Part shown: piece after piece, positions 5,650-62,361 of the stretch
Layout: each line of letters opens with the position of its first letter
How positions within the stretch are numbered: the first letter of the stretch is position 1
Assembly (NCBI GenBank): GCA_003598025.1
Contig: QZKH01000002.1
Coordinates: 74,133-138,132, forward strand
Origin: Candidatus Omnitrophota bacterium
GTDB lineage: Bacteria; Omnitrophota; Gorgyraeia; Gygaellales; Profunditerraquicolaceae
Reading direction: 5' to 3'
Length of the DNA stretch: 64,000 nucleotides
The notes under the pieces: model-generated
The model's input: only the letters and a program-made list of their open reading frames with translations
Database searches by the model: none
What the model was told of the DNA's origin: nothing
Position numbers and translations under genes: made by a program

Positions 5650-7167
5650 ATGGATATTATTAAAACACTGCAGGAGCGTATAAACACAGATGCCGATAAA
5701 CCGGCTATAATTTTTCGAGGCGGCCAGATATCTTTTAAGGAATTAATAACCAAGGTATATTCTTTAGCAGACAGCCTCGCAAAAATCGGCGTTAAGAATT
5801 CAGATAAAGTAGCTATATACCTGCCTAATTGCCCTGAATATTTCATAAGCTACCTGGCGGCATGGTGTATGGGGTTGGCGGTTGTCCCCTTAGACTATAT
5901 GCTTACCGAAGATGAATTGAATTCGTGTATTGGGCATTCAGAGGCAAAAGTGCTTATCGCCAGGCAGAAACCGGTGATATCACTAAATAATATAAAATCC
6001 AGAAACACAAAGCTTACCCATATTATTGTATCTAATCCTTCTGATAGCGGATTCCTTAAATTCGATGATATGTGTGTTACCTATAAGGCAGGCCCGAAAA
6101 AAGCTTATTCAGAAAAGGATTATGCGATTATTTTTTACACATCAGGCACTACCGGTAAACCCAAGGGTGTCCTGATAAATTACCGTCAATTAGGCGCTCC
6201 CGTACAATCAATGAGTTTTTTTACGGATTTAAACGACAAGGATATTGCCTTGTGCGCATTGCCCTTTTCTCACCTGGGAGGCCTGATTTATATCTTAAAC
6301 TGTGTTTCTTTTGGCATTACGGTTGTGCTTATGGAGCGGTTTAGCCCGTTAGAGTTCCTCAAAAATATAGAGGCCTTTAAGGTGAGCTGCTTCTGGATAG
6401 TGCCCTCGATGTATTATGCCTTCCTTCAGTTAAAAGAATTTGAAAATATCGATCTTTCTTCGCTCAGATGGATAGTTACTTTCGGGGCCTCAAATTCCCC
6501 CGAGGCATTAAGAAGGTTCCATAAATATTGCCCGAGTGCTTATATTTTAAACGGCTGGGGCCTGACCGAAACGAACGCCCCAACTACGGTTCTGCCTATG
6601 GGCTCAAATAAAATCGAGAGTGTAGGCCGTCCTGCCCCGTGGATCGAAGTGAAGATATTTTCCGCAGAGGGTTTGGATACGCCGGACAAAGAATTGCCAA
6701 GAGGCGAAATAGGCGAAATTGTTGTCAAAAGCTGGGTGGTTACTGACGGATATTATAAAGATGAGAACCTTACGCTTCAGACGATCCGTAACGGATGGTT
6801 CCATACCGGAGACCTGGGCAGGTTTGATGACGATGGGCACCTATACATTGTCGGCAGAAAAAAAGAAATGATAAAAGTCGGGGGAGAAATAGTTTTTGAG
6901 CCCGAGGTTGAATCAGTGATTTACAGCCATCCGGATGTAAGCGAAGCAGCTGTTATAGGAGTAAGCGATAAACTAAGAGGCGAAGTACCCAAGGCCTTCA
7001 TTGTCCTTAAAGAAGGCAGGCAGCTTTCAGAGGAGGACATAAGATTTTTCTTAAGACAGCATCTTGCGCATTTTAAAATCCCGCATTATTTCGAATATAA
7101 GGAAAGTCTCCCTAAGAACCGGACAGGCAAGATTGATAAAGAAGCGCTCAGGACAGGTTCTTATTGA
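5650..7167 (+). CDS. AMP-dependent acyl-CoA synthetase/ligase
   Basis: 505 aa. Contains YTSGTTGKPKGV (AMP-binding motif), GWGLTE, TGDLGRFDDDGHLYIVGRKKEMIK and a C-terminal PKNRTGKI. Confidence 0.85.
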   Translation: MDIIKTLQERINTDADKPAIIFRGGQISFKELITKVYSLADSLAKIGVKNSDKVAIYLPNCPEYFISYLAAWCMGLAVVPLDYMLTEDELNSCIGHSEAKVLIARQKPVISLNNIKSRNTKLTHIIVSNPSDSGFLKFDDMCVTYKAGPKKAYSEKDYAIIFYTSGTTGKPKGVLINYRQLGAPVQSMSFFTDLNDKDIALCALPFSHLGGLIYILNCVSFGITVVLMERFSPLEFLKNIEAFKVSCFWIVPSMYYAFLQLKEFENIDLSSLRWIVTFGASNSPEALRRFHKYCPSAYILNGWGLTETNAPTTVLPMGSNKIESVGRPAPWIEVKIFSAEGLDTPDKELPRGEIGEIVVKSWVVTDGYYKDENLTLQTIRNGWFHTGDLGRFDDDGHLYIVGRKKEMIKVGGEIVFEPEVESVIYSHPDVSEAAVIGVSDKLRGEVPKAFIVLKEGRQLSEEDIRFFLRQHLAHFKIPHYFEYKESLPKNRTGKIDKEALRTGSY

Positions 7168-7173
7168 ATCCGG

Positions 7174-8199
7174 ATGAACATAAATAATTTCAACCTTGAA
7201 GAGTTGGAGAAAGTGTTGCGCGAATGTGGTCAGCCTGTTTTTCGCGCCCGGCAGATTTTTGCCTGGGTACATAAGAGGAAAGTCTTTGATTTCGGAAAAA
7301 TGTCGGATATGCCGTCAAGCTTAAGAGAAAAACTCAAAAATAAATATTCTATTCAGGATTTAAGCATAAGGAACATAACACGGTCAAGAGACGGAACGCA
7401 AAAATACCTTTTTTCTTTGAATGATGCCAATCTTATTGAAGCGGTGAATATCCCTGCGGCAGGCAGGGTTACGGGATGCGTTTCTACGCAAGCCGGCTGC
7501 AGGTTTGCTTGTAAATTTTGCGCAAGCGGAATTCAGGGATTTGTCAGGAACCTGGAATGTTCTGAGATAATTGAGCAGATTCTTGTCCTTGACAGAGATG
7601 CTTCCGGCGGCCTCACTAACCTCGTTTTTATGGGCACAGGCGAGCCGTTAGATAATTACGATAATGTTATCAAGGCGGCAAGGATAATAAATTCGCAATA
7701 CAGCATTAATCTTGGCGCAAGGAAGATAACCATTTCAACTTCCGGTGTCATTGCCGGCATAGAGCGTCTCAGTAACGAAGGGCTGCAAATCGAACTATCG
7801 GTTTCTTTGCATGCTGCAGATGATAGGACAAGGTCAAGCCTGATGCCCATAAACAAGGTTTATCCTCTAAGTGATCTGATTAAAGCCTGCAGAAAATATA
7901 CCGAGAAAACTAACCGGCAGATAACTTTCGAATACATCCTTATTAAGGGCATTAATTCTACATTGCAGGATGCGCTTAATTTAGTTAAAGTATTAAAAGG
8001 GTTATCCACAATCAAGGTTAATCTTATAGTATCTAATATCGTAGAAGAATCCGGACTTGAGCCGGCGGGCCTGAAAGATGCCGCTGCTTTTAAAGGGTGC
8101 CTTATTAAACACGGCATAAACGTGACGCTGCGTAAGCCGCGCGGACAGGATATTGATGCTGCCTGTGGGCAATTGAGGTTGAGATATGGGGAAGGATAG
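7174..8199 (+). CDS. rlmN: dual-specificity RNA methyltransferase RlmN (radical SAM)
   Basis: 341 aa. N-terminal FRARQIFAWV, radical-SAM CRFACKFCASG, FMGTGEPLDN, and C-terminal DIDAACGQL. Confidence 0.9.
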   Translation: MNINNFNLEELEKVLRECGQPVFRARQIFAWVHKRKVFDFGKMSDMPSSLREKLKNKYSIQDLSIRNITRSRDGTQKYLFSLNDANLIEAVNIPAAGRVTGCVSTQAGCRFACKFCASGIQGFVRNLECSEIIEQILVLDRDASGGLTNLVFMGTGEPLDNYDNVIKAARIINSQYSINLGARKITISTSGVIAGIERLSNEGLQIELSVSLHAADDRTRSSLMPINKVYPLSDLIKACRKYTEKTNRQITFEYILIKGINSTLQDALNLVKVLKGLSTIKVNLIVSNIVEESGLEPAGLKDAAAFKGCLIKHGINVTLRKPRGQDIDAACGQLRLRYGEG

Positions 8200-8866
8200 T
8201 TCACTGTTCATAGTTCATAGTTCATGGATTAAGGCGGCAAATTTTATCTTGGCCTTATTTTTATTCTTTGGGATCATCGGGTGTCAGAAGAGGGATATAA
8301 AGAATATTGATTCTAAGGGCACGAATATCATTTGTTTCGGGGATAGCATAACCTTTGGTTACGGCGTTGACCCGGATAAAAGCTATCCTGCGGTTTTAGC
8401 CGGCATAACGCAGTGGCAGGTCATTAACGCAGGGGTAGATGGCGATACTTCAACCGATGGCTTAAACAGGATTAACAAAGATGTTTTAGAAAAAGACCCC
8501 TTACTTGTTGTTATTGAGTTCGGCGGTAATGATTTTCTCAAGAAAATACCAAAAACGCAAACCGCTGAAAACGTAAATAAAATGATTGATCATATACATG
8601 GACGCGGCTCAATGGTAGCGTTGTTAGATATAAGTACAGGCATTTTACTTAGCGATTACCATAAGCTTTTGAAAGACATAGCATCAGAAAGAGGCGCTAT
8701 TTTTATCCCAAAGATTTTAACAGGAATAATCACTAACCCCAGTATGAAGAGCGATTTCCTGCATCCTAATGAAAATGGTTACGCTGTTATCGCCCAACGT
8801 GTTTACCGCACAATTATCCCTTACCTGAATAGGAATTTTACTTTAAAGAGCATCGCCAGCAAATAA
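8186..8866 (+). CDS. SGNH/GDSL hydrolase lipoprotein (TesA/arylesterase-like)
   Basis: Contains ICFGDSITFGYG (block I Ser), GGNDF (block III) and a lipobox FGIIGC. GAGG sits 7 nt before ATG 8186. The N-terminal residues SSLFIVHSSW are encoded by the heptamer array at 8199-8226. Confidence 0.8.
   Translation: MGKDSSLFIVHSSWIKAANFILALFLFFGIIGCQKRDIKNIDSKGTNIICFGDSITFGYGVDPDKSYPAVLAGITQWQVINAGVDGDTSTDGLNRINKDVLEKDPLLVVIEFGGNDFLKKIPKTQTAENVNKMIDHIHGRGSMVALLDISTGILLSDYHKLLKDIASERGAIFIPKILTGIITNPSMKSDFLHPNENGYAVIAQRVYRTIIPYLNRNFTLKSIASK
8199..8226. repeat. tandem heptamer array GTTCACT GTTCATA GTTCATA GTTCATG
   Basis: Read directly from the sequence: four contiguous 7-nt units. Member of the dispersed family (see findings). 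Confidence 0.9.
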
Positions 8867-8929: not shown

Positions 8930-9409
8930 GTGATGAGAAATATCCTTCACACGCCAATCCCTGAGAAAAGATATCGGGCCAGGGCTTTTGCCCTGGTAGA
9001 GACGCTTCTTGCCACGGCGATAATGGTGTTTGGGCTTTGCGCGATACTGATAACCTACATATCCTGCCTTTTACTTATTACTACCGCTAAGAACATTAAT
9101 ATAGCTACTAATGCTACGTTAAGCCTGATGGAGGGGATACGCAGCAGCGATTTTACACAGATATCCGCTAATTATAACGGATTAAATTTTGTTTTAAACG
9201 ATATACCTTTAAGCAGGGGAGTAGTTTATGTTGATGATACAAATGCCGAGCTTTTACAGGTGGATATAAGCGTGTGTTGGCAGCAGGGTAACAGGGTAAT
9301 CGGAGAAGATGCAAATTTAAACGGTATGCTTGATCCGGGAGAAGATGTAAATGGTAACGGGATCATTGATTCCACGGTAAAGGCGACAACTTTAATAGCC
9401 AACAGGTGA
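8930..9409 (+). CDS. type IV pilin-like minor pilin (PilV-like)
   Basis: Contains RA-FALVETLLATAIMVFGL, a prepilin-type N-terminal motif with the conserved Glu at +5 (Ala instead of Gly at -1). The C-terminal DANLNGMLDPGEDVNGNGIID looks like Ca-binding loops. Confidence 0.6.
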   Translation: MMRNILHTPIPEKRYRARAFALVETLLATAIMVFGLCAILITYISCLLLITTAKNINIATNATLSLMEGIRSSDFTQISANYNGLNFVLNDIPLSRGVVYVDDTNAELLQVDISVCWQQGNRVIGEDANLNGMLDPGEDVNGNGIIDSTVKATTLIANR

Positions 9410-9410
9410 T

Positions 9411-9932
9411 ATGAAAAGGGGCCTTACACTAATAGAAATACTTGTTGCTTCAAGTATCCTGATATTATTAATACTTGCTGTGTTTCAGGTAATGGAAGCA
9501 GGAAGGAGCGCAGTATTTACCGGGGATTTAACAGTGCAATTGCGCCAGGAGATAATCAGAACTTTTATGAGGATGGAAAGGGAGTTAAAAGAGGCACGCC
9601 CCGCGCTGGTGAGTTTAACAAGCGGCAATAGTAGTTCGACTATCACATTCAGTGTCCCTCAGGATATTAATGGCGACGGGACGGTTTTGGATGATTTTGG
9701 CGCTATTGAATGGTCTGCCGTTATTACATATGCTTTAAACGGTTCTAATCAAATAATCAGGACTTCATCCGGTGTTACTAATGTGCTTGCAAACGATATT
9801 GTCAGTTTACAGTTCAGCAGGCCGCTTTCCCCTGTTAATATCTTACAGATTGATATGACGGCGCGCAAGATTTCTTCTTCTGGCAGGCAGTTACAGGACG
9901 CCGGGCAAATGGTAATAGAAATGAGGAATTGA
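9411..9932 (+). CDS. prepilin-type N-terminal cleavage/methylation domain protein (PilW-like)
   Basis: N-terminus MKRG-LTLIEILVASSIL is the canonical G/xTLxE pilin leader. Contains a DINGDGTVLDD loop. Confidence 0.7.
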   Translation: MKRGLTLIEILVASSILILLILAVFQVMEAGRSAVFTGDLTVQLRQEIIRTFMRMERELKEARPALVSLTSGNSSSTITFSVPQDINGDGTVLDDFGAIEWSAVITYALNGSNQIIRTSSGVTNVLANDIVSLQFSRPLSPVNILQIDMTARKISSSGRQLQDAGQMVIEMRN

Positions 9933-9935
9933 TAA

Positions 9936-11243
9936 ATGCAATATTTCTTCCCAAGGTTAGCAAATAAAAAGGGAGTAGCTTTAATTACTACATTCTTTGC
10001 AATTACCGTGCTGCTTATTTTTTGCGGGCTTTTTGTTATGGTAAGTATAAGCCAAAATATGGCCTCGGATAGGTTCAGAAGGAGAACGCGCGCTTTTTAC
10101 CTGGCTGAATCGGGTTTAGACAGGGCAATTTTTTGGTTAAGGACGCAACCTTCTCCGCCCGTAGGAGACAAGATTGATCCGTGGGGGGGCGCGCAGAATT
10201 TAGGCGAAGGCAGCTATACAGTTTCTATCTTTGACCTGGGCATGGTGGGAGCCAATTCCAGTATCCGAAGGTACAGGGTAAGGTCTTCAGGGTCTTTTGG
10301 GAATATAACCCGCACTTTGACTAATTATGTACAGGTTGATAACTACGCCCGGTATCTCTGGTTTACGGATCGGGAGGTTTATGGAGGAGTAAATGTCTGG
10401 TTTTGGACGCAGGACAGGCTAAACGGCCCAACGCATACCAATTCTCACTTCAATATTTATGGCAATCCTGTTTTTGAAAGCGAGGTCCGCTCCGTAGACG
10501 ACTATATAAGGTTTTATAATAACGGTATTAATGTTAATTTGCAGCAGACTTCCAATTCACCTTATGATGAACCAGTTTTTCTGGAAGGAGTTGACTTCGG
10601 AGTGCAGCCAACAACAATGCCTAACCAGGCTTTAAGCCTGCGCTCAGCGGCAAATAGCAGCGAAGGCATTTATTTAAGCGGCAATACAAAGGTGGTACTA
10701 AACAGCGACGGGACAATGAGTGTCACTAATTCCAAGAAAAAGTGGAAAGACAAAGATATGCCATTACCGGCAAACGGCGCCCTCTTTGTCAATAACGGTT
10801 CTTTGCATGTTTCCGGAACGCTTAATGGAAGGCTTACGGTCGGTTCCAGCAGTGATGTGGTCATCCCGGATAGCATTGTATACGCCGATGACCCAAAGCT
10901 TAACCCCAATTCCGATGATGTCCTCGGGGTTATTTCCGAAAGAGATATAGTTGTAAGTTATGACGCGCCTCACGATCTTGAGATAGACGCTTGCATGATG
11001 TCCCTGGGTACATCTTTTATGATGGAGGATTGGTGGGTAGGCCCGGCTAAAGGCACATTATCTGTTTATGGCGGTATAATTCAGGATGAAAGGGGTCCCG
11101 TCGGGACTTTTAACAGCCTGGCCGGGACAAAAGTAAGCGGGTACTCAAAAGATTATTCTTATGACCCGAGATTGCTGAGCAACCCGCCGCCTTACATGCC
11201 AACAACCGGCGATTATATAACTTTATCCTGGCAGGAGAATTAA
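9936..11243 (+). CDS. PilX-N-domain pilus-associated protein
   Basis: 435 aa. NKKGVALITTFFAITVLLIF...AFYLAESGLDRAIFWL matches the PilX N-terminal pattern. The remainder is a large beta-rich domain of unknown family. Confidence 0.5.
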   Translation: MQYFFPRLANKKGVALITTFFAITVLLIFCGLFVMVSISQNMASDRFRRRTRAFYLAESGLDRAIFWLRTQPSPPVGDKIDPWGGAQNLGEGSYTVSIFDLGMVGANSSIRRYRVRSSGSFGNITRTLTNYVQVDNYARYLWFTDREVYGGVNVWFWTQDRLNGPTHTNSHFNIYGNPVFESEVRSVDDYIRFYNNGINVNLQQTSNSPYDEPVFLEGVDFGVQPTTMPNQALSLRSAANSSEGIYLSGNTKVVLNSDGTMSVTNSKKKWKDKDMPLPANGALFVNNGSLHVSGTLNGRLTVGSSSDVVIPDSIVYADDPKLNPNSDDVLGVISERDIVVSYDAPHDLEIDACMMSLGTSFMMEDWWVGPAKGTLSVYGGIIQDERGPVGTFNSLAGTKVSGYSKDYSYDPRLLSNPPPYMPTTGDYITLSWQEN

Positions 11244-11246
11244 TAT

Positions 11247-11690
11247 ATGAAGCCAAAGACAATATATATTATTACTGCAGCTTTAGCAGCGGTTGTCTTT
11301 TCGCTGACTATGTCCATAAGTTTTAAGGATGATAATAAACAGCCTACATTGATGAAAAGGCAAGCCCGTGTCCATAGAACTGAATTTCCCGGTCCTTCAT
11401 TTACAAGTCAGCAGTCTTATAGCGGGTTTACCTCGGTGCCCGGTATTACCGTTGTAAAACCTCCGAAAAAGAAAGAGCCTGTTGAGTCAGTAATAAATAA
11501 TGAACCTTTATCGGATAAGCAAGATATCATTGATAAACAAAGCGTGGATGTTTCCCAAAAAGAGCCTTCCGGATCCCCGGACGAAAATAACGAAGAAGAT
11601 AATAGCACCTCAGGTATTACCGAGCTAAATAAGCGCCCCCCGGAAAAAGAAGCCCGCGAAATGAATCAACATGGGATTATGATGTGGTAA
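11247..11690 (+). CDS. hypothetical membrane-anchored protein with acidic low-complexity tail
   Basis: 147 aa. Single N-terminal TM, then a Pro/Glu/Ser/Asp-rich region. Last gene of the pilin operon. Confidence 0.4.
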   Translation: MKPKTIYIITAALAAVVFSLTMSISFKDDNKQPTLMKRQARVHRTEFPGPSFTSQQSYSGFTSVPGITVVKPPKKKEPVESVINNEPLSDKQDIIDKQSVDVSQKEPSGSPDENNEEDNSTSGITELNKRPPEKEAREMNQHGIMMW

Positions 11691-11692
11691 TT

Positions 11693-11734
11693 CTGCTACG
11701 CCCTAAGTAGGCTCAAGTAGGTAGGGCTTCGCAG
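11693..11734. terminator. stem-loop at the convergence of the pilin operon and tRNA-Leu (possible bidirectional terminator)
   Basis: CTGC-tac-GCCCTA, a 16-nt loop, then TAGGGC-ttc-GCAG. No U-tract on either side. Confidence 0.3.
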
Positions 11735-11742
11735 CAATATAA

Positions 11743-11825
11743 TGCCGAGAGAGGGAGTTGAACCCTCACGAGGTTGCCCTCACCAGTTTTTGAGACTGGC
11801 GTGTATGCCATTCCACCACCTCGGC
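11743..11825 (-). tRNA. tRNA-Leu (anticodon CAA), type II with long variable arm
   Basis: Folded by hand. Acceptor GCCGAGG/TCTCGGC; anticodon arm CCAGT-CTCAAAA-ACTGG; variable stem GAGG/CCTC; T arm GAGGG-TTCAACT-CCCTC. CCA is not encoded. Confidence 0.9.
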
Positions 11826-11924
11826 ATAAGTAGATTTGTTTTGAGGTAAGAATATTTACCAGGAAATGCTAGCTACGGCATTTGCTGATTTGCCTTACTT
11901 TTAGCTACAGCAAATCAATCCTGG

Positions 11925-12271
11925 GGCCTTTTAGCCCGAAGGATTTGGACCGTTTTACGCTCGTTTAGTGCCACTTCAAATTTTCCTTGTCGGAAAATAG
12001 TTATGTGGTGGCGCCGCACTCGCTGCCTCACTTGTCGCTCGGCTACGCTCGTTGCGGCATCCACCAATTTTTTCCTTACCGGAAAATTAAAATCCAAGGC
12101 ACTGAACTCGCTACGGTCCTTGTCGGACCGTTTTACGCTCGTTTAGTGCCACTTCAAATTTTCCTTGTCGGAAAATTAAAATCCAAGGCACTGAACTCAC
12201 TACGGTCCTTGTCGGACCGTTTTACGCTCGTTTAGTGCCACTTCAAATTTTCCTTGTCGGAAAATTTGAAG
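11925..12271. repeat. about four copies of an 89-bp tandem repeat (two near-identical, one partial, one diverged) rich in hairpins
   Basis: The core GGACCGTTTTACGCTCGTTTAGTGCCACTTCAAATTTTCCTTGTCGGAAAAT starts at 11947, 12125 and 12214 (period 89). A ~70% diverged copy lies at 11999-12085. The array fills the spacer between the two minus-strand tRNA genes. Confidence 0.85.
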
Positions 12272-12344
<73 letters not shown>

Positions 12345-12364
12345 ATTATTATATTTTGCGTTCG

Positions 12365-12519
12365 TCCCGAGCTACCTTCTCTTGTCTTATGTACCGAGGA
12401 GCAGCCCCATATTTAAAATTTAAAGCTCAGTATACACTCCCAGTCCCGACGCTCATTTGCATTCGGTCGGGATGCCGACTTCACGTATTTTGTGAACGTC
12501 GGCACTGAGCTACAGCCCC
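12365..12519 (-). other. two degenerate, interrupted copies of the tRNA-Ala 5' segment (pseudo-tRNA fragments)
   Basis: On the minus strand, 12519-12505 equals tRNA positions 1-15 (GGGGCTGTAGCTCAG). A 61-nt insert of two hairpins follows (12504-12444), then CTGGGAG (positions 16-22) at 12443-12437. A second fragment has GGGGCTG at 12408-12402 and TAGCTCGGGA at 12374-12365. Confidence 0.6.
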
Positions 12520-12594
12520 ATATTGGCTTAAATTTAGTGTATTAAATATAACATTCGGCTATAGCATTGTCAATACCTTCTGGCTGCCAAACAA

Positions 12595-12691
12595 GTTCAT
12601 GGTTGATAGTTCAAGGTTCATGGACTATGTTAGCGCTTATAGCTATTAAGATTATCTATGAACTATGAACCATGAACAATGAACTATAAAC
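12595..12691. repeat. inverted pair of heptamer arrays (GTTCATN x4, 34-nt spacer, NATGAAC x5)
   Basis: Left arm 12595-12622: GTTCATG GTTGATA GTTCAAG GTTCATG. Right arm 12657-12691: TATGAAC TATGAAC CATGAAC AATGAAC TATAAAC. Confidence 0.9.
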
Positions 12692-13988: not shown

Positions 13989-16406
13989 ATGGAATATGAT
14001 TTTAAGGAAATAGAGAAGAAGTGGCAGGGATATTGGGATAAGAGCGGTCTATACCGCGCTGAATATTCTCCGGGCAATAAGAAATATTATTTGCTTGAGA
14101 TGTTCCCTTATCCTTCGGGCAAGATACATATGGGCCATGTAAGGAATTATGCCATTGCCGACGTTGCCGCAAGGTTTAAGTTGATGCAGGGTTATAATGT
14201 CCTGCATCCGATGGGTTTTGACGCTTTTGGCCAGCCTGCAGAAAACGCTGCAATCAAGAACAAAACCAAGCCCGATGCCTGGACCCATAAATGCATAGAC
14301 TGGATGCGCGTTGAGCTTAAGAAGATGGGTTTTTCTTATGATTGGGCAAGGGAGGTATCTACCTGCGACAGCACTTATTATAAGTGGAACCAATGGATAT
14401 TCCTTAAAATGTTTGAGAAGGGCCTTGCTTACAAGAAAGCCTCGAATGTAAACTGGTGCCCGAACTGCGAAACCACACTTGCTAATGAAGAAGTGATAAG
14501 TGAAGAGTGCTGGAGATGCCATAGCAAAGTTGAGCAGCGTAAACTTGACCAGTGGTTTTTAAAGATCACCGGATATAAAGAACGGCTGCTTGAAGATCTG
14601 GGAAAGCTTAAAAATTGGCCGGAGCGCGTTATTGCAATGCAGTCTAACTGGATCGGCAGGAGCCAGGGCGTGGAGATTTATTTTAAAATTAAAGGCAATG
14701 ATGATATCACGATACCGGTTTTTACCACCCGTGTAGATACTATATTCGGCGCCAGCTACGTAGTTTTAGCACCGGAGCATCCTTTGGTCGAGGATATTAT
14801 AAAAGGCATAGCACATGAGCCAGAGATCAGGAAGTTTATCAATAAGGTAAAGAAAGAAAAAAAGAACATACTCTCCAAAGAAGATGTTAAAAAAGAGGGT
14901 ATTTTCAGCGGCCGTTATTGTATCAACCCGGTGAATAATGAAACTATCCCTGTTTGGATCGGTGATTATGTTTTAATGGAGTATGGCACAGGCGCGATTA
15001 TGGCAGTGCCGGCTCATGACCAGAGGGATTTTCTTTTTGCTAAAGAACATGGGTTACCTATGAGAATAGTTATAAACAGTCCACAGTCCACAGTCCACAG
15101 TCCACAGGAATTGACTGAAGCGTATGAGGGGGATGGTTTCCAGGTTAATTCTGGGCAATTTGATGGATTGGATAACCAAAAGGCAAAGTCCGAGATTGCA
15201 AAGTGGATGGAGGCAAAAGGGATAGGCAAAATCCAGACACACTGGAGGCTGCGCGATTGGCTTATATCAAGACAGCGATATTGGGGTACACCTATACCGG
15301 TTATATATTGTGAAAAATGCGGGATCGTGCCTGTCCCATATCATGACCTGCCTGTTGAATTGCCGGCTGATGCCCCTTTTACCGGTGAGGGTGGCAGCCC
15401 CTTGGCAAAAGTGAAAAAATTTGTAAATGTCAAATGCCCTAAATGCAATGGCTCTGCCAGGCGCGAAACAGATACCATGGCTACTTTTTTTGACTCGTCG
15501 TGGTATTTCCTGAGATTCTGTTCCCCTTCTTTTAATGAGGCGCCTTTTGATAAGCAGGAGGCTAGATATTGGATGCCAGTTGACCAGTATATCGGGGGAA
15601 TAGAGCACGCTATTTTACATTTACTCTATTCACGCTTTTTTACTAAATTTTTCAAAGACCTGGGGATGGTGGAATTTGACGAGCCGTTTACATGCCTGCT
15701 TACACAGGGGATGGTCCTTAAAGAAGGCGAAGTAATGTCAAAGTCAAAAGGTAATATAGTTGACCCAGATTCGATTATAAAGAAATACGGTGCAGATGCC
15801 CTGCGGCTTTTTATACTTTTTGCCGCGCCTCCGGAAACTGAACTGGAGTGGGATGACAGGGGGATTGAGGGAGCATCCAAGTTCTTAAACAGGGTATGGC
15901 GCCTGCAGGATAACCTAAGGGATGGCCCGGCAGATAAATCAGGAGGGCTGGCCACCGCAAAAATACTGCATAAAACAGTTAAGAAAGTAACTGATGATAT
16001 AAATCAGTTTAAATTTAATACCGCGATTGCCAGTTTAATGGAGCTGACAAATGTTTTATATCAGTCCGGGGCAGATAAAGAGGATTATTCTACGTTAGTT
16101 GTGTTGCTGGCCCCGATAGCCCCGCATTTTGCAGAGCAAATTTGGGAGAATTTAGGGAACAAAGAATCTGTATTTAAGGCAAAATGGCCGCAGTATAACC
16201 CGGATTATCTTTTTGATTCTGTTGTTGATATAGTAGTCCAGGTAAATGGTAAGCTGCGCTCTAAGCTCGCAGTCCCGTTTGATGTTAGAGAAGAAGAGTT
16301 AAAAGAATTAGTCTTGCGTGATCAGAAGGTACAACCCTGGATTAGCGGTAAGAATATCAGAAGTTTTATATTCGTGCCCAACAAACTTGTCAACATCGTA
16401 GTCTGA
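13989..16406 (+). CDS. leuS: leucine--tRNA ligase
   Basis: 805 aa. Contains HMGHVRNY (HIGH), VMSKSKGN (KMSKS) and a CP1 editing domain. Confidence 0.97.
15076..15108. repeat. tandem heptamer array (ACAGTCC x4.7, equivalent to GTCCACA units) inside leuS
   Basis: Read directly from the sequence. Encodes [11 protein letters not shown] in a variable linker after the HDQRDF...GLP segment. Confidence 0.9.
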
Positions 16407-16839: not shown

Positions 16840-16935
16840 GTTCATAGTTCATAGATCATGGTTCATAGATAATTTATGCTGACGCTTACATTTATCCATG
16901 CTAAGACAACCAACCATGAACCATGCTCTATGAAC
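16840..16935. repeat. inverted pair of heptamer arrays in the divergent intergenic region
   Basis: Left arm 16840-16867: GTTCATA GTTCATA GATCATG GTTCATA. After a 47-nt spacer, right arm 16915-16935: CATGAAC CATGCTC TATGAAC. Confidence 0.85.
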
Positions 16936-16989
16936 CAATCCCTGTTAGAAATAACATCTGTATGCGTCTTATATCAGGAGGGCAAAAAT

Positions 16990-18703: not shown

Positions 18704-18731
18704 CCGTAACTATGAACTATGGACCATGAAC
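18704..18731. repeat. tandem heptamer array CCGTAAC TATGAAC TATGGAC CATGAAC
   Basis: Read directly. Starts 9 nt after the comEC stop and ends 25 nt upstream of a TTGACA hexamer (18756-18761). Confidence 0.85.
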
Positions 18732-62303: not shown

Positions 62304-62345
62304 CATGAACCACGAACTATGAACTATGAACTATGAACTATGAAC
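62304..62345. repeat. six-unit tandem heptamer array CATGAAC CACGAAC (TATGAAC)x4
   Basis: Read directly from the sequence. The array ends 16 nt before the -35 hexamer. Confidence 0.92.
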
Positions 62346-62361
62346 TAATATGCTATACCCT

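What the first reader, a model, noticed from the sequence alone, without database searches (positions are those of the whole stretch)
11925..12271. 89-bp hairpin-rich tandem repeat filling the tRNA-Ala to tRNA-Leu spacer
There are two near-identical 89-bp units (12125-12213 and 12214-12271 onward), a partial unit at 11947-11998 and a ~70% diverged unit at 11999-12085. Read on the tRNA (minus) strand, each unit holds two 7-bp hairpins with different stems but the same pentaloop: ATTTTCC-GACAA-GGAAAAT and ACGGTCC-GACAA-GGACCGT. The second is nested in a GGCACT/AGTGCC outer stem. The copy next to tRNA-Ala extends to a perfect 13-bp stem, CTTCAAATTTTCC-GACAA-GGAAAATTTGAAG, starting right at the tRNA 3' end.

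Different stems with an identical loop suggest loop-specific recognition, for example a processing or binding protein. As part of a tRNA co-transcript these would be abundant structured RNAs. I know of no described element with this form.
Basis: seen in the sequence. Interest (0 to 1): 0.55.

Follow-up and report, generated by a model that had tools for sequence, protein, structure and literature searches.

The report
Conserved tRNA-trailer RNA module, tandemly repeated
The 89-bp repeat is real and is a local tandem expansion of a roughly 90-nt two-hairpin RNA module, apparently undescribed, that in Omnitrophota bacteria sits directly on the 3' end of many tRNA and tmRNA genes and base-pairs with their last nucleotides.

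Summary
In detail: an 89-bp period in 3.6 copies at 11947-12266, with hairpins exactly as described.

It is not a private repeat. One metagenome scan found over 100 homologous copies. They lie directly 3' of tRNAs of about 18 anticodon classes and of tmRNA, always in the gene's orientation. 92 of 113 arrays hold a single unit. The window and the named relatives are Candidatus Omnitrophota.

The module has two parts.
- **hp1** is a 15-bp A/U-rich helix. Its first pairs use the tRNA's own last nucleotides. It is capped by a G-N-Y-A-A pentaloop.
- **hp2** is a rod with a CGAGC/GCGAG helix holding tandem G.A pairs, a UAA bulge, a 7-bp apical helix and the same loop.

Covariation is very strong: 96.6% of cells paired against 33-44% in slid controls, and 26 of 31 pairs show double changes. 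Rfam 15 and the literature library hold nothing like it.

Orthologous tRNA-Ala loci show the module between the tRNA end and a canonical terminator. One orthologue lacks it, so it is neither a terminator nor essential.

Best reading (inferred): a cis-acting 3'-trailer element that masks the acceptor end and recruits a loop-specific factor. A selfish tRNA-end-homing element is the main rival. Function is untested.

The parts
12272..12344 (-). tRNA-Ala(GGC). CCA is not encoded. Its last three nucleotides (C71 C72 A73, 12272-12274) form the first pairs of hp1.
   Evidence: ARAGORN and Rfam; inverted repeat I3; fold.
12238..12274 (-). Unit 1 hp1: a 16-bp perfect stem (5' arm 12259-12274, 3' arm 12238-12253) with GACAA loop at 12254-12258. 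It starts inside the tRNA 3' end.
   Evidence: (I3). The family-wide helix of 15 columns all covaries.
12187..12239 (-). Unit 1 hp2 (type A): GGCACU outer stem; ACGAGC/GUGAGU helix with tandem G.A; UAAA bulge; ACGGUCC-GACAA-GGACCGU apical hairpin.
   Evidence: covariance-model hit 12176-12277 at 93.5 bits; covariation.
12087..12175 (-). Unit 2, 97% identical to unit 1. Its own hp1 stem is only 7-8 bp (12158-12176). Its 3' arm (12149-12164) is still fully complementary to the tRNA-proximal 5' arm. hp2 lies at 12098-12150.
   Evidence: D2; model hit at 59 bits; arm analysis.
11999..12086 (-). Unit 3, subtype B. hp1 has a GGUAA loop. hp2 (12007-12065) is GGUGGAUGCCGCA..ACGAGCGUA..GCCGAGC-GACAA-GUGAGGC..AGCGAG..UGCGGCGCCACC followed by ACA. 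Its arm GGAAAAAAUUGGUGG fits a CCACCA (CCA-encoding) tRNA end like that of relatives.
   Evidence: Model hit at 35 bits. The same subtype occurs in L105, L106, L110, L118, L139, L145, L163, L166 and L210.
11947..11998 (-). Unit 4, truncated: hp1 plus the 5' half of hp2. It is 100% identical to the corresponding 52 nt of units 1 and 2 and ends after ACGGUCC.
   Evidence: D1; partial model hit 11980-11998.
11827..11946 (-). Unique remainder of the spacer. It holds no repeat and no promoter-like or terminator-like consensus site.
11742..11826 (-). tRNA-Leu(CAA), downstream of the array. No module follows it.
12545..12573 (-). Candidate sigma-70 promoter TTGACA-17-TATATT (11/12, with TG) that would drive tRNA-Ala, the array and tRNA-Leu.
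   Evidence: This is a consensus match only.

Best explanation
**Shown.** The 89-bp repeat is a tandem array of a conserved module of about 90 nt. It has two near-identical type-A units, one type-B unit and one truncated unit. In Candidatus Omnitrophota this module is placed, always in the gene's orientation and with no spacer, on the 3' end of tRNA and tmRNA genes. It lies upstream of the terminator or the next gene.

The module folds on the tRNA strand into two hairpins.
- **hp1:** a 15-bp A/U-rich helix. Its basal pairs are made with the last nucleotides of the tRNA (C71-C72-N73 or C74-C75-A76). It is capped by a G-N-Y-A-A pentaloop.
- **hp2:** a rod with an outer helix, a CGAGC/GCGAG helix carrying tandem G.A pairs, a 3-4-nt UAA bulge and a 7-bp apical helix with the same pentaloop.

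**Inferred.** It acts in cis in the primary transcript as a 3'-trailer element.
1. hp1 masks the acceptor end.
2. Masking would hold back RNase P, RNase Z, CCA addition or exonuclease access.
3. The fixed 15-bp length and the GNRA-like loops and G.A motifs offer a ruler and docking surface for a dedicated protein, probably a nuclease.
4. That factor governs how the tRNA or tmRNA 3' end is released from downstream RNA.

The extra copies in the window arose by local duplication at the A/T-rich 5' arm.
For: **Distribution**
138 units in 113 arrays were counted (a few in GC-rich coding false positives), 68 of them 36-43 nt from a tRNA or tmRNA end.
- The upstream genes cover about 18 anticodon classes plus at least 10 tmRNAs.

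**Structure**
- 31 pairs are 96.6% paired, against 33-44% for slid controls. 26 pairs show double changes, and 0 of 500 shuffles reach the observed score.
- RNAalifold independently predicts the same helices.
- The base that pairs with the discriminator covaries with it.
- The hp1 stem is exactly 15 bp in 44 of 60 copies.
- G.U outnumbers A.C 16 to 4 in hp1 plus the hp2 top, and 11 to 0 in the hp2 top alone. This puts the structure on the tRNA strand.
- Loops not fixed by the search pattern keep G-N-Y-A-A. GACAA forms a protein-read GNRA-like fold in P22 boxB.

**Context**
- In the orthologous loci L216 and L218 the order is tRNA-Ala, module, canonical terminator. L217 has no module.
- The minimum-energy fold keeps the cloverleaf, and hp1 starts at A73 with no linker.
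- Pairing of the 3' RCCA is reported to inhibit bacterial RNase P (abstract of PMC9433436).
- hp2 identity is no higher within a contig than between contigs (0.73 against 0.75). There is no sign of recent transposition.
- Neighbouring genes are housekeeping genes on the same strand.
Against: - There are no expression or end-mapping data, and no partner protein is identified.
- The module is dispensable. L217 and many orthologous tRNA-Val genes lack it. It cannot be a general requirement for maturation.
- A stable helix starting at N73 would be expected to hinder known 3'-processing enzymes, not help them.
- The core positions CGAGCG, CCGACAAGG and AGYGAG were fixed by my search pattern. Their invariance is partly ascertainment, although 24 model hits outside the pattern keep them mostly.
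- A G.U excess also fits a top-strand single-stranded DNA hairpin.
- Distal units keep a 3' arm complementary to the tRNA end but lack their own 5' arm. A simple cis-processing signal does not explain this.
Confidence: 0.45

Rival explanations
1. **Selfish small mobile element.** The module is a non-autonomous, hairpin-dependent element in the style of REP/RAYT or IS200/IS605 'PATE' elements. It acts as top-strand single-stranded DNA and homes to the 3' end of tRNA, tmRNA and acceptor-like genes. The two hairpins with one shared loop are the binding sites of a trans-encoded enzyme. Arrays grow by repeated insertion or duplication.
For: - Presence and absence vary at orthologous sites: L217 against L216 and L218, and tRNA-Val before thrS.
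- There are tandem arrays, truncated units and mixed subtypes A and B in one array.
- The core sequence is highly conserved across unrelated tRNAs, although the module is dispensable for any one of them.
- The left flank is always CCR.
- Loops are flipped in L188.
- tRNA and tmRNA genes are classic targets of integrating elements (from memory: Williams 2002).
Against: - No transposase or integrase is enriched within 4 kb of about 100 loci.
- No other copy occurs in the 64-kb window.
- Copies within a contig are no more alike than copies between contigs.
- No terminal inverted repeats span a unit, and there is no consistent target-site duplication.
- Orientation is always that of the tRNA.
- The 15-bp helix, including the pair with the discriminator, is kept by compensatory change at each locus. 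This needs ongoing selection on pairing at every site.
Confidence: 0.22
2. **Source of trans-acting, guide-like small RNAs.** Processing of the trailer releases RNAs made of a conserved scaffold (hp2) and a variable arm. The arm is the hp1 3' strand, complementary to the pre-tRNA 3' end and trailer. In distal units the arm is largely unpaired. It could target other precursor molecules or compete with unit 1 for the tRNA end. Known parallels are E. coli rtT and the 3'ETS sponge RNAs.
For: - In 16 of 20 distal units the 3' arm pairs 12-15 of 15 positions with the tRNA-proximal 5' arm. Their own 5' arms give only 1-9 contiguous pairs.
- This holds even where the hp2 subtypes of units 1 and 2 differ, as in L105 and L118.
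- Distal hp2 copies keep compensated stems, for example L208.
- The scaffold is conserved while the arm varies.
Against: - Most loci have a single unit, whose arm is fully occupied in hp1.
- Several arrays are recent duplicates, where arm identity carries no information: window, L130, L193, L211.
- The arm's target is mostly the module's own 5' arm, not the mature tRNA.
- No protein partner is known and there are no expression data.
Confidence: 0.15
3. **boxB-like transcription antitermination site.** The GACAA hairpins recruit an N-like or Nus-type factor to RNA polymerase, so that it reads through downstream terminators of tRNA operons.
For: - The pentaloop is identical to P22 boxB.
- In the window the array lies inside a probable two-tRNA transcript.
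Against: - No boxA-like sequence lies in the locus. The 33 window matches equal the chance level of 31.7, and none falls in 11700-12600.
- Stems are 15 bp and 7 bp, not 5 bp.
- There is no phage context. The viral scan gave only a false positive in coding sequence.
- In L216 and L218 a canonical terminator follows directly and ends the unit before nfo's own promoter.
Confidence: 0.04
4. **Functionless repeat or unusual terminator.** The array is a tandem repeat without function, or an atypical intrinsic terminator.
For: - Hairpins directly after tRNA genes are common as terminators, also in unrelated phyla (3 of 8 control tRNAs).
- Units 1 and 2 are a recent duplication.
Against: - More than 100 homologues carry compensatory changes.
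- There is no U-tract, and no terminator-like site is called in the array.
- Separate canonical terminators follow the module in L216 and L218.
- Other tRNAs on the same contigs use classical terminators.
Confidence: 0.02

Closest known systems
E. coli tRNA-linked repeats and RtT RNA (tyrT operon; Rfam RF00391). From memory: Egan & Landy 1978; Bosl & Kersten 1991.
   Same: Tandem repeats lie directly downstream of a tRNA gene in the same transcript. Units can carry a vestige of the tRNA 3' end: 'AUACCA' follows hp2 in many loci. A processed trailer RNA is conceivable.
   Different: - There is no sequence or structure match to RF00391.
- The unit is 89 nt, not 178.
- The Omnitrophota module is usually single-copy.
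- It occurs after about 18 tRNA classes and tmRNA.
- It base-pairs with the tRNA end and has strong covariation.
Phage nut-site boxB hairpins (P22 boxB, GACAA pentaloop; PDB 1A4T)
   Same: The pentaloop is identical in sequence. By analogy it is a GNRA-like fold with the third base flipped out and read by a protein (PMC12550061). Different stems carry one shared loop.
   Different: - Stems are 15 bp and 7 bp, not 5 bp.
- There is no boxA.
- There is no phage context.
- The position is at tRNA 3' ends, not in early phage transcripts.
REP/BIME elements with RAYT transposases; IS200/IS605-derived palindromic MITEs
   Same: These are short conserved palindromic units at gene 3' ends. They vary in presence between orthologous sites, form clusters, keep their stems by compensation, and may depend on a trans-acting enzyme that reads hairpins.
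   Different: - The module is not dispersed. It sits only at tRNA, tmRNA or acceptor-like ends, with none elsewhere in 64 kb.
- All copies share one orientation.
- The hairpin incorporates host-gene nucleotides.
- Copies within a genome are not homogenised.
- No transposase is linked.
tRNA-like processing signals: plant mitochondrial t-elements, the MALAT1 mascRNA, and bacterial 3'ETS RNAs (from memory)
   Same: A structured element next to a stable RNA may act as a cleavage signal or yield a by-product RNA. Three observations point this way:
- hp2 of subtype B ends ...GCGGCGCC-A-CCA, like an acceptor helix.
- In L111 a real tRNA occupies the place of hp2.
- A minihelix variant GGAUGCCGAAAC-AAUGU-GUUUCGGCGCC exists.
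   Different: - hp2 is not recognised as tRNA-like by ARAGORN or the Rfam tRNA model.
- The NCCA-like tail is present in only a subset.
- No cleavage data exist.

Membership tests
Omnitrophota tRNA/tmRNA 3'-trailer module (family defined here; covariance model R1) | Match to the covariance model built from 66 homologues (hp1 plus hp2, 31 pairs). | tested here: met
   Window units score 93.5, 59 and 35 bits (E 1.8e-21, 7.8e-13, 7.8e-07). Unit 1 was in the seed; units 2 and 3 were not.
Omnitrophota tRNA/tmRNA 3'-trailer module (family defined here; covariance model R1) | hp1 begins within the last nucleotides of a tRNA or tmRNA gene, in the same orientation. | tested here: met
   The stem starts at C71 of tRNA-Ala (12274). 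In the family, 68 arrays lie at 36-43 nt from the gene end.
RtT RNA / tRNA-linked repeats (RF00391) | Tandem repeats immediately downstream of a tRNA gene on the same strand. | tested here: met
RtT RNA / tRNA-linked repeats (RF00391) | Sequence and structure match to the Rfam RtT model. | tested here: not met
   No hit at the gathering score or at E<=10.
RtT RNA / tRNA-linked repeats (RF00391) | Each repeat starts with a copy of the tRNA 3' end (feature recalled from memory). | tested here: inconclusive
   Window units 2-4 begin ...UUGGAUUUUA AUUUUCC, with no tRNA-end copy. Unit 3 ends GCC-A-CCA. Many other loci have 'AUACCA' after hp2.
Phage nut site (boxA + boxB) | Short hairpin with a GNRA-like pentaloop. 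| tested here: met
   GACAA loops, the same loop as P22 boxB.
Phage nut site (boxA + boxB) | boxA element adjacent to boxB. | tested here: not met
   No match with <=3 mismatches in 11700-12600. The window total equals chance.
Phage nut site (boxA + boxB) | Phage or prophage context with an N-type protein. | tested here: not met
   Neighbours are chromosomal housekeeping genes. The viral-contig scan gave only a coding false positive. An N-type protein was not searched for genome-wide.
REP/BIME | Many copies dispersed in extragenic regions. | tested here: not met
   No model hit elsewhere in the 64 kb. Homologues sit at tRNA or tmRNA ends.
REP/BIME | A cognate RAYT transposase in the genome. 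| not testable with these tools
   Only 64 kb of the genome is held. None is enriched near about 100 loci.
MITE / IS200-IS605-derived palindromic element | Near-identical copies within one genome (recent transposition). | tested here: not met
   hp2 identity is 0.73 within a contig (different arrays) against 0.75 between contigs.
MITE / IS200-IS605-derived palindromic element | Terminal or subterminal hairpins at both ends, and a fixed short target at the left flank. | tested here: inconclusive
   The two hairpins share CC-GACAA-GG, and the left flank is always CCR. But hp1 includes the flank itself, and no direct target duplication is consistent.
Intrinsic (Rho-independent) terminator | G+C-rich stem followed by a U-tract. 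| tested here: not met
   No terminator-like site is called in the array. Canonical terminators lie downstream of the module in L216 and L218.
CRISPR, TIGR or ToxI-type processed repeat arrays | Repeats separated by unique spacers, or an adjacent effector or toxin gene. | tested here: not met
   Whole 89-nt units repeat without unique spacers. By their homologues in relatives, two downstream ORFs are an AP endonuclease and LeuRS. The other flanking ORFs were not compared with any library.
tRNA-like element (t-element or mascRNA type) | Recognisable tRNA-like fold, or an acceptor helix followed by NCCA. | tested here: inconclusive
   No tRNA-model hit lies inside the units. Subtype B ends GCGGCGCC-A-CCA in the window and L145. 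In L111 a real tRNA replaces hp2.

The most novel reading that the evidence does not exclude
The module is the RNA half of a lineage-specific machine directed at tRNA ends. A conserved scaffold (hp2, with G.A-rich internal loops and a GNRA-like pentaloop) is bound by a dedicated protein. A locus-specific 15-nt arm addresses, by base pairing, the 3' end and trailer of one particular tRNA or tmRNA precursor. In cis the first unit does this, and in trans or by competition the 5'-arm-less distal units do. Together they control when the acceptor end is exposed or cut. This would be a bacterial, RNA-addressed layer of tRNA and tmRNA maturation or quality control with no known counterpart.
Probability: 0.15. 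Interest if true: 0.9.

Novelty: categorically new. Interest (0 to 1): 0.78.

Why it matters
If the reading holds, Omnitrophota carry a conserved structured RNA on the acceptor end of a large share of their tRNA and tmRNA precursors. Omnitrophota are a widespread phylum of uncultivated bacteria.

That implies one of two things. Either there is a lineage-specific step in tRNA and tmRNA 3'-end maturation or surveillance, with an unidentified loop-reading protein. Or there is a new kind of selfish element that homes to acceptor ends and has to preserve them.

Either way the family is well suited to experiment.
- It is defined by a covariance model with over 100 members and unusually clean covariation.
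- It has a fixed 15-bp 'ruler' helix.
- It has two copies of a pentaloop whose protein-recognition mode is known from phage P22.

It also shows that a 'private' tandem repeat in one MAG can flag a phylum-wide RNA motif missing from Rfam.

Tried and rejected
1. **Rfam 15.** I scanned the whole window at gathering score, the locus at E<=10, and a consensus-like member, L213. Only the tRNAs matched, plus sub-threshold microRNA and plastid noise.
2. **First genome scan.** The pattern used two TCCGACAAGGA loops. It returned 95 loci, nearly all coding repeats in unrelated phyla.
3. **Viral contigs.** There was one hit, a coding false positive.
4. **Neighbour-gene clustering.** I clustered ORFs within 4 kb of about 100 loci to find a linked transposase, integrase or nuclease. 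Only housekeeping families on the same strand came up.
5. **Target-site duplication.** A CCR-like motif (often AUACCA) follows hp2 in about a third of loci. But in L216 the vestigial second hairpin shares the locus-specific GCCAA loop. This points to local duplication and not to a target-site duplication.
6. **Homogenisation and orthology signal in hp2.** There was none: 0.73 against 0.75 within and between contigs, and 0.778 against 0.780 for same and different tRNA types.
7. **A general 'end-masking hairpin' claim.** I dropped it. In a small control of unrelated phyla, 3 of 8 tRNAs also have long hairpins at their ends, and these are ordinary terminators.
8. **Unknown RNAs upstream of some modules (L148, L131, L159).** There was no Rfam hit and no significant fold.
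9. **Literature.** Seven completed searches found no description of such an element; one further query was rejected for its syntax. A lead to rtT in a CoCoNuT preprint was not present in the held version.
10. **Other ideas considered and set aside.**
   - K-turn: the bulge is on the wrong side of the G.A pairs.
   - Retroviral-type primer-binding site: only 6 nt match the tRNA.
   - Known self-cleaving ribozyme classes: no Rfam hit.
Full report
**1.

Tandem Repeats Finder reports one array at 11947-12266 with period 89 and 3.6 copies. The repeat finder gives two 89-nt copies that are 97% identical. It also gives a 52-nt core that is 100% identical in three places, and a copy of about 70% identity.

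The array lies between tRNA-Ala(GGC) at 12272-12344(-) and tRNA-Leu(CAA) at 11742-11826(-).

The hairpin next to the tRNA is longer than reported. It has 16 perfect pairs, because CCA (C71, C72, A73) of the tRNA pairs with UGG (I3).

The signal is far above chance. CCGACAAGG occurs 5 times in the window, all here, against 0.22 expected. The array folds 11.5 standard deviations better than shuffles.

Only 11947-12271 is repeat. The 120 nt next to tRNA-Leu are unique sequence.

**2. It is not a private repeat**

A first genome-collection scan was mostly noise. It did return one Omnitrophota MAG (L056) with a single unit directly after tRNA-Ala(GGC). There tRNA-Leu is divergent, so the element goes with tRNA-Ala and not with the spacer.

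A metagenome scan used the motif shared by the window and L056. About 13 of those loci are GC-rich coding false positives.

After a stem-pairing filter that removed most of those false positives, the scan left 138 units in 113 arrays; a few coding hits still pass it:
- 68 arrays start 36-43 nt after a tRNA or tmRNA end.
- The upstream genes cover about 18 anticodon classes.
- tmRNA precedes at least 10 arrays (ARAGORN plus Rfam).
- Two arrays follow tRNAs that contain group I introns.
- 92 arrays have one unit, 17 have two and 4 have three.

Every unit has the orientation of the upstream gene.

The window's LeuRS is 100% identical to a protein of a 'Candidatus Omnitrophota bacterium' MAG, and its relatives are all Omnitrophota. 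The ThrRS of one metagenomic locus also has only Omnitrophota named relatives. ThrRS from nine loci are 71-83% identical to each other.

**3. Anatomy**

I aligned 66 distinct first units. This gives the following picture.

- **hp1.** A helix of 15 columns that runs into the tRNA. It starts with CC, either C71-C72 or the encoded C74-C75, paired to the GG of a conserved GGCAC. The next pair involves the discriminator or A76 and covaries: A:U 42, C:G 10, G:C 9.
  - The perfect stem is exactly 15 bp in 44 of 60 copies and 16 bp in 5.
  - The loop was not constrained by my search. It is GACAA in 51 of 66, GATAA in 7, GGCAA in 3 and GGTAA in 2.
- **hp2.** This follows with no linker. It has an outer helix; a CGAGC/GCGAG helix with invariant G.A and A.G oppositions and a further G.A; a bulge (GUUAA, GUAAA or GUAA); a 7-bp apical helix; and the same pentaloop.

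Two caveats and three supports apply to hp2.
- **Ascertainment caveat:** CGAGCG, CCGACAAGG and AGYGAG were fixed by the search pattern.
- The 24 covariance-model hits outside the pattern mostly keep them.
- One of those hits replaces the tandem G.A by G-C/C-G pairs, in L207.
- Orthologues found through LeuRS carry GGCAA, GCCAA, GATAA or GUUAA loops. The loop rule is therefore G-N-Y-A-A.
- GACAA is the P22 boxB loop, a GNRA-like fold with the third base flipped out toward the N peptide (PMC12550061).

A second subtype, B, has the outer stem GGAUGCCGC/GCGGCGCC and often a G.A-containing apical stem. It recurs in many loci and is the window's 'diverged' unit 3.

**4. The structure is under selection**

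For 31 pairs, 96.6% of cells are standard pairs. Partners slid by 1-3 columns give 33-44%, and column shuffles give 77.8%. 26 pairs carry double changes, in 345 cells. None of 500 shuffles reaches the observed values.

RNAalifold independently predicts the same helices and finds 22 of its 26 pairs compensated.

In the two well-aligned helices G.U outnumbers A.C by 16 to 4, and by 11 to 0 in the hp2 apical stem. So the structure forms on the tRNA strand.

A covariance model (R1) finds the three full units and the partial one in the window, and nothing else in 64 kb. It finds 129 copies in 100 loci.

**5. Context from orthologues**

LeuRS homologues led to three syntenic loci. The gene order there is tRNA-Leu(-), a divergent promoter region, tRNA-Ala(GGC)(+), then nfo and leuS.

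- In L216 and L218 the tRNA-Ala is followed by one module. Then comes a canonical G+C stem with U-tract terminator, then nfo's promoter.
- In L217 there is no module, and the terminator starts 6 nt after CCA.

So the module is transcribed trailer. It is not the terminator, and it is dispensable.

The same conclusion comes from tRNA-Val upstream of thrS, which has the module in some contigs and not in others. Other tRNAs on the same contigs use classical terminators.

In the window, the block of promoter, tRNA-Ala and module is inverted relative to these relatives. It now reads toward tRNA-Leu.
- The promoter TTGACA-17-TATATT lies at 12573-12545(-).
- No promoter-like or terminator-like site lies between the array and tRNA-Leu.

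Co-transcription of the two tRNAs through the array is therefore likely, but it is inferred.

**6. How the array arose**

Units 1 and 2 differ at 3 of 89 positions. Their junction falls in the A/T-rich part of the 5' arm (...GGAUUUUA|AUUUUCC). This fits slippage or unequal exchange.

Unit 3's arm, GGAAAAAAUUGGUGG, fits a CCACCA end. That is the CCA-encoding state of the relatives' tRNA-Ala. It does not fit the present CCACUUCAA end, so the array mixes older and newer units.

Across 20 distal units in other arrays the same asymmetry recurs.
- The unit's own 5' arm gives only 1-9 contiguous pairs.
- The 3' arm is 15/15 complementary to the tRNA-proximal 5' arm in 9 cases and 12-13/15 in 7.
- This includes arrays whose hp2 subtypes differ (L105, L118).

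I cannot explain this by simple decay. It is the main unexplained observation.

**7. What it most likely does**

Shown:
- The position on tRNA and tmRNA ends.
- The strand.
- The structure.
- The pairing with the acceptor end.
- That the module is dispensable.
- That the terminator is separate.

Inferred: in the primary transcript hp1 starts at N73 with no linker while the cloverleaf stays intact. The discriminator and CCA are therefore buried in a 15-bp helix.

Pairing of the 3' RCCA is reported to inhibit bacterial RNase P (abstract of PMC9433436). From general knowledge, RNase Z and the 3' exonucleases need a single-stranded trailer.

I therefore favour a cis-acting trailer element that masks the end until a dedicated factor acts. 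That factor would be positioned by the fixed stem length and would read the two identical GNRA-like loops and the G.A rod. I give this 0.45.

The main rival is a selfish hairpin element that homes to acceptor ends (0.22).
- For it: gain and loss at orthologous sites, arrays, truncated copies and a conserved core despite dispensability.
- Against it: no linked transposase, no dispersal, no within-genome similarity excess, and site-by-site compensatory maintenance of the helix.

A guide-like small-RNA reading (0.15) is prompted by the distal arms. boxB-type antitermination (0.04) and 'just a repeat or terminator' (0.02) are contradicted.

**8. Comparison with known systems**

- **E. coli tRNA-linked repeats and RtT.** This is the closest analogue in arrangement, but the Rfam model does not match and the architecture differs.
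- **P22 boxB.** The loop is the same, but boxA, phage context and stem length are not.
- **REP/BIME and IS200/IS605-derived MITEs.** They share population behaviour but not dispersal, orientation or copy similarity.
- **tRNA-like processing signals.** A relation is suggested by subtype B's ...GCC-A-CCA tail, by a minihelix variant of hp2, and by L111, where a real tRNA occupies hp2's place. But hp2 is not detected as tRNA-like.

No Rfam family or paper in the held library describes the module. I therefore rate it as a new RNA family of unknown function. The caveat is that the library is incomplete.

**9. Verdict**

The finding is real, and it is the visible tip of a phylum-wide, strongly covarying RNA module attached to acceptor ends. 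The tandem repetition in this window is a local and partly recent expansion, and the conserved single module is the object of interest. Function remains untested. Interest is 0.78.

Noticed in passing
window 12394-12410 and 12505-12521 (minus strand), with hairpins at about 12448-12504: The first 17 nt of tRNA-Ala (GGGGCUGUAGCUCAG...) are repeated twice upstream of the real gene, at 100% and 76% identity. The distal copy is interrupted in its D-loop by two hairpins, UGCCGAC...GUCGGCA and UCCCGAC...GUCGGGA. Similar 'tRNA 5' fragment plus hairpins' leaders precede tRNA-Val in L160 and L173.
   Followed up: partly
window 11827-12600 compared with L216 3660-4160 and L218 3720-4160: The block of promoter, tRNA-Ala(GGC) and module is inverted in the window relative to three related genomes. 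In those genomes tRNA-Ala is divergent from tRNA-Leu and reads toward nfo-leuS. The window's tRNA-Ala has also lost the encoded CCA.
   Followed up: partly
window 8196-8225, 12656-12691, 15076-15107, 16840-16870, 16912-16937, 18708-18731, 62305-62347; L216 3825-3895: Short tandem heptamer repeats (CTATGAA, ATGAACT, GTTCATA, ATAGTTC, ACAGTCC) are scattered through the window, and the copy at 12656-12691 lies just upstream of the nfo promoter. Related GTTCGTA repeats flank the tRNA promoter region in a relative.
   Followed up: no
L148 838-972, L150, L172 about 8030-8135, L215 about 6620-6710; L109, L131, L159: In these loci the module follows sequences that neither ARAGORN nor Rfam recognises. 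They end in an acceptor-like stem, for example GGGU(U)AGUC...GACUACCC-G, or GGUGUGC...GGUUCG...GCACACC-G. They may be unrecognised tRNA-like RNAs. The fold of one is not significant (z = 0.16).
   Followed up: partly
L109, L112, L114, L206, L212 (3' flanks of tRNA-Ser, tRNA-Ala and tmRNA): There is a second 'flavour' of trailer module with the same architecture but other loops. hp1 is a 15-18-bp palindrome with a UUAA loop that again includes the tRNA end. It is followed by a plain minihelix, GGAUGCCGAAAC-AAUGU-GUUUCGGCGCC. In L212 it is mixed with a GACAA-type hp2 in one array.
   Followed up: partly
L111 (tRNA-Ile(GAU) 3' flank): hp1 alone lies between tRNA-Ile and tRNA-Ala. Its 3' arm runs straight into the GG that starts the next tRNA, so a real tRNA sits where hp2 normally is.
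   Followed up: no
L188 (three copies); L130 unit 3; L145 unit 2: In L188 the hp1 loops are present as the reverse complement (CUUGUC), which suggests DNA-level flipping of the palindrome. In L130 and L145 other small hairpins are inserted inside hp1.
   Followed up: no
L099 6579-6903 and L105 889-1098: Group I introns lie inside tRNA genes that are followed by the module.
   Followed up: no
window 8930-11690: Four ORFs, the first three with hydrophobic N-termini of the prepilin or pseudopilin kind (for example MKRGLTLIEILVASSILILL), lie between the GDSL-lipase gene and tRNA-Leu. The relative L216 has no such insert between the lipase gene and the tRNAs.
   Followed up: no
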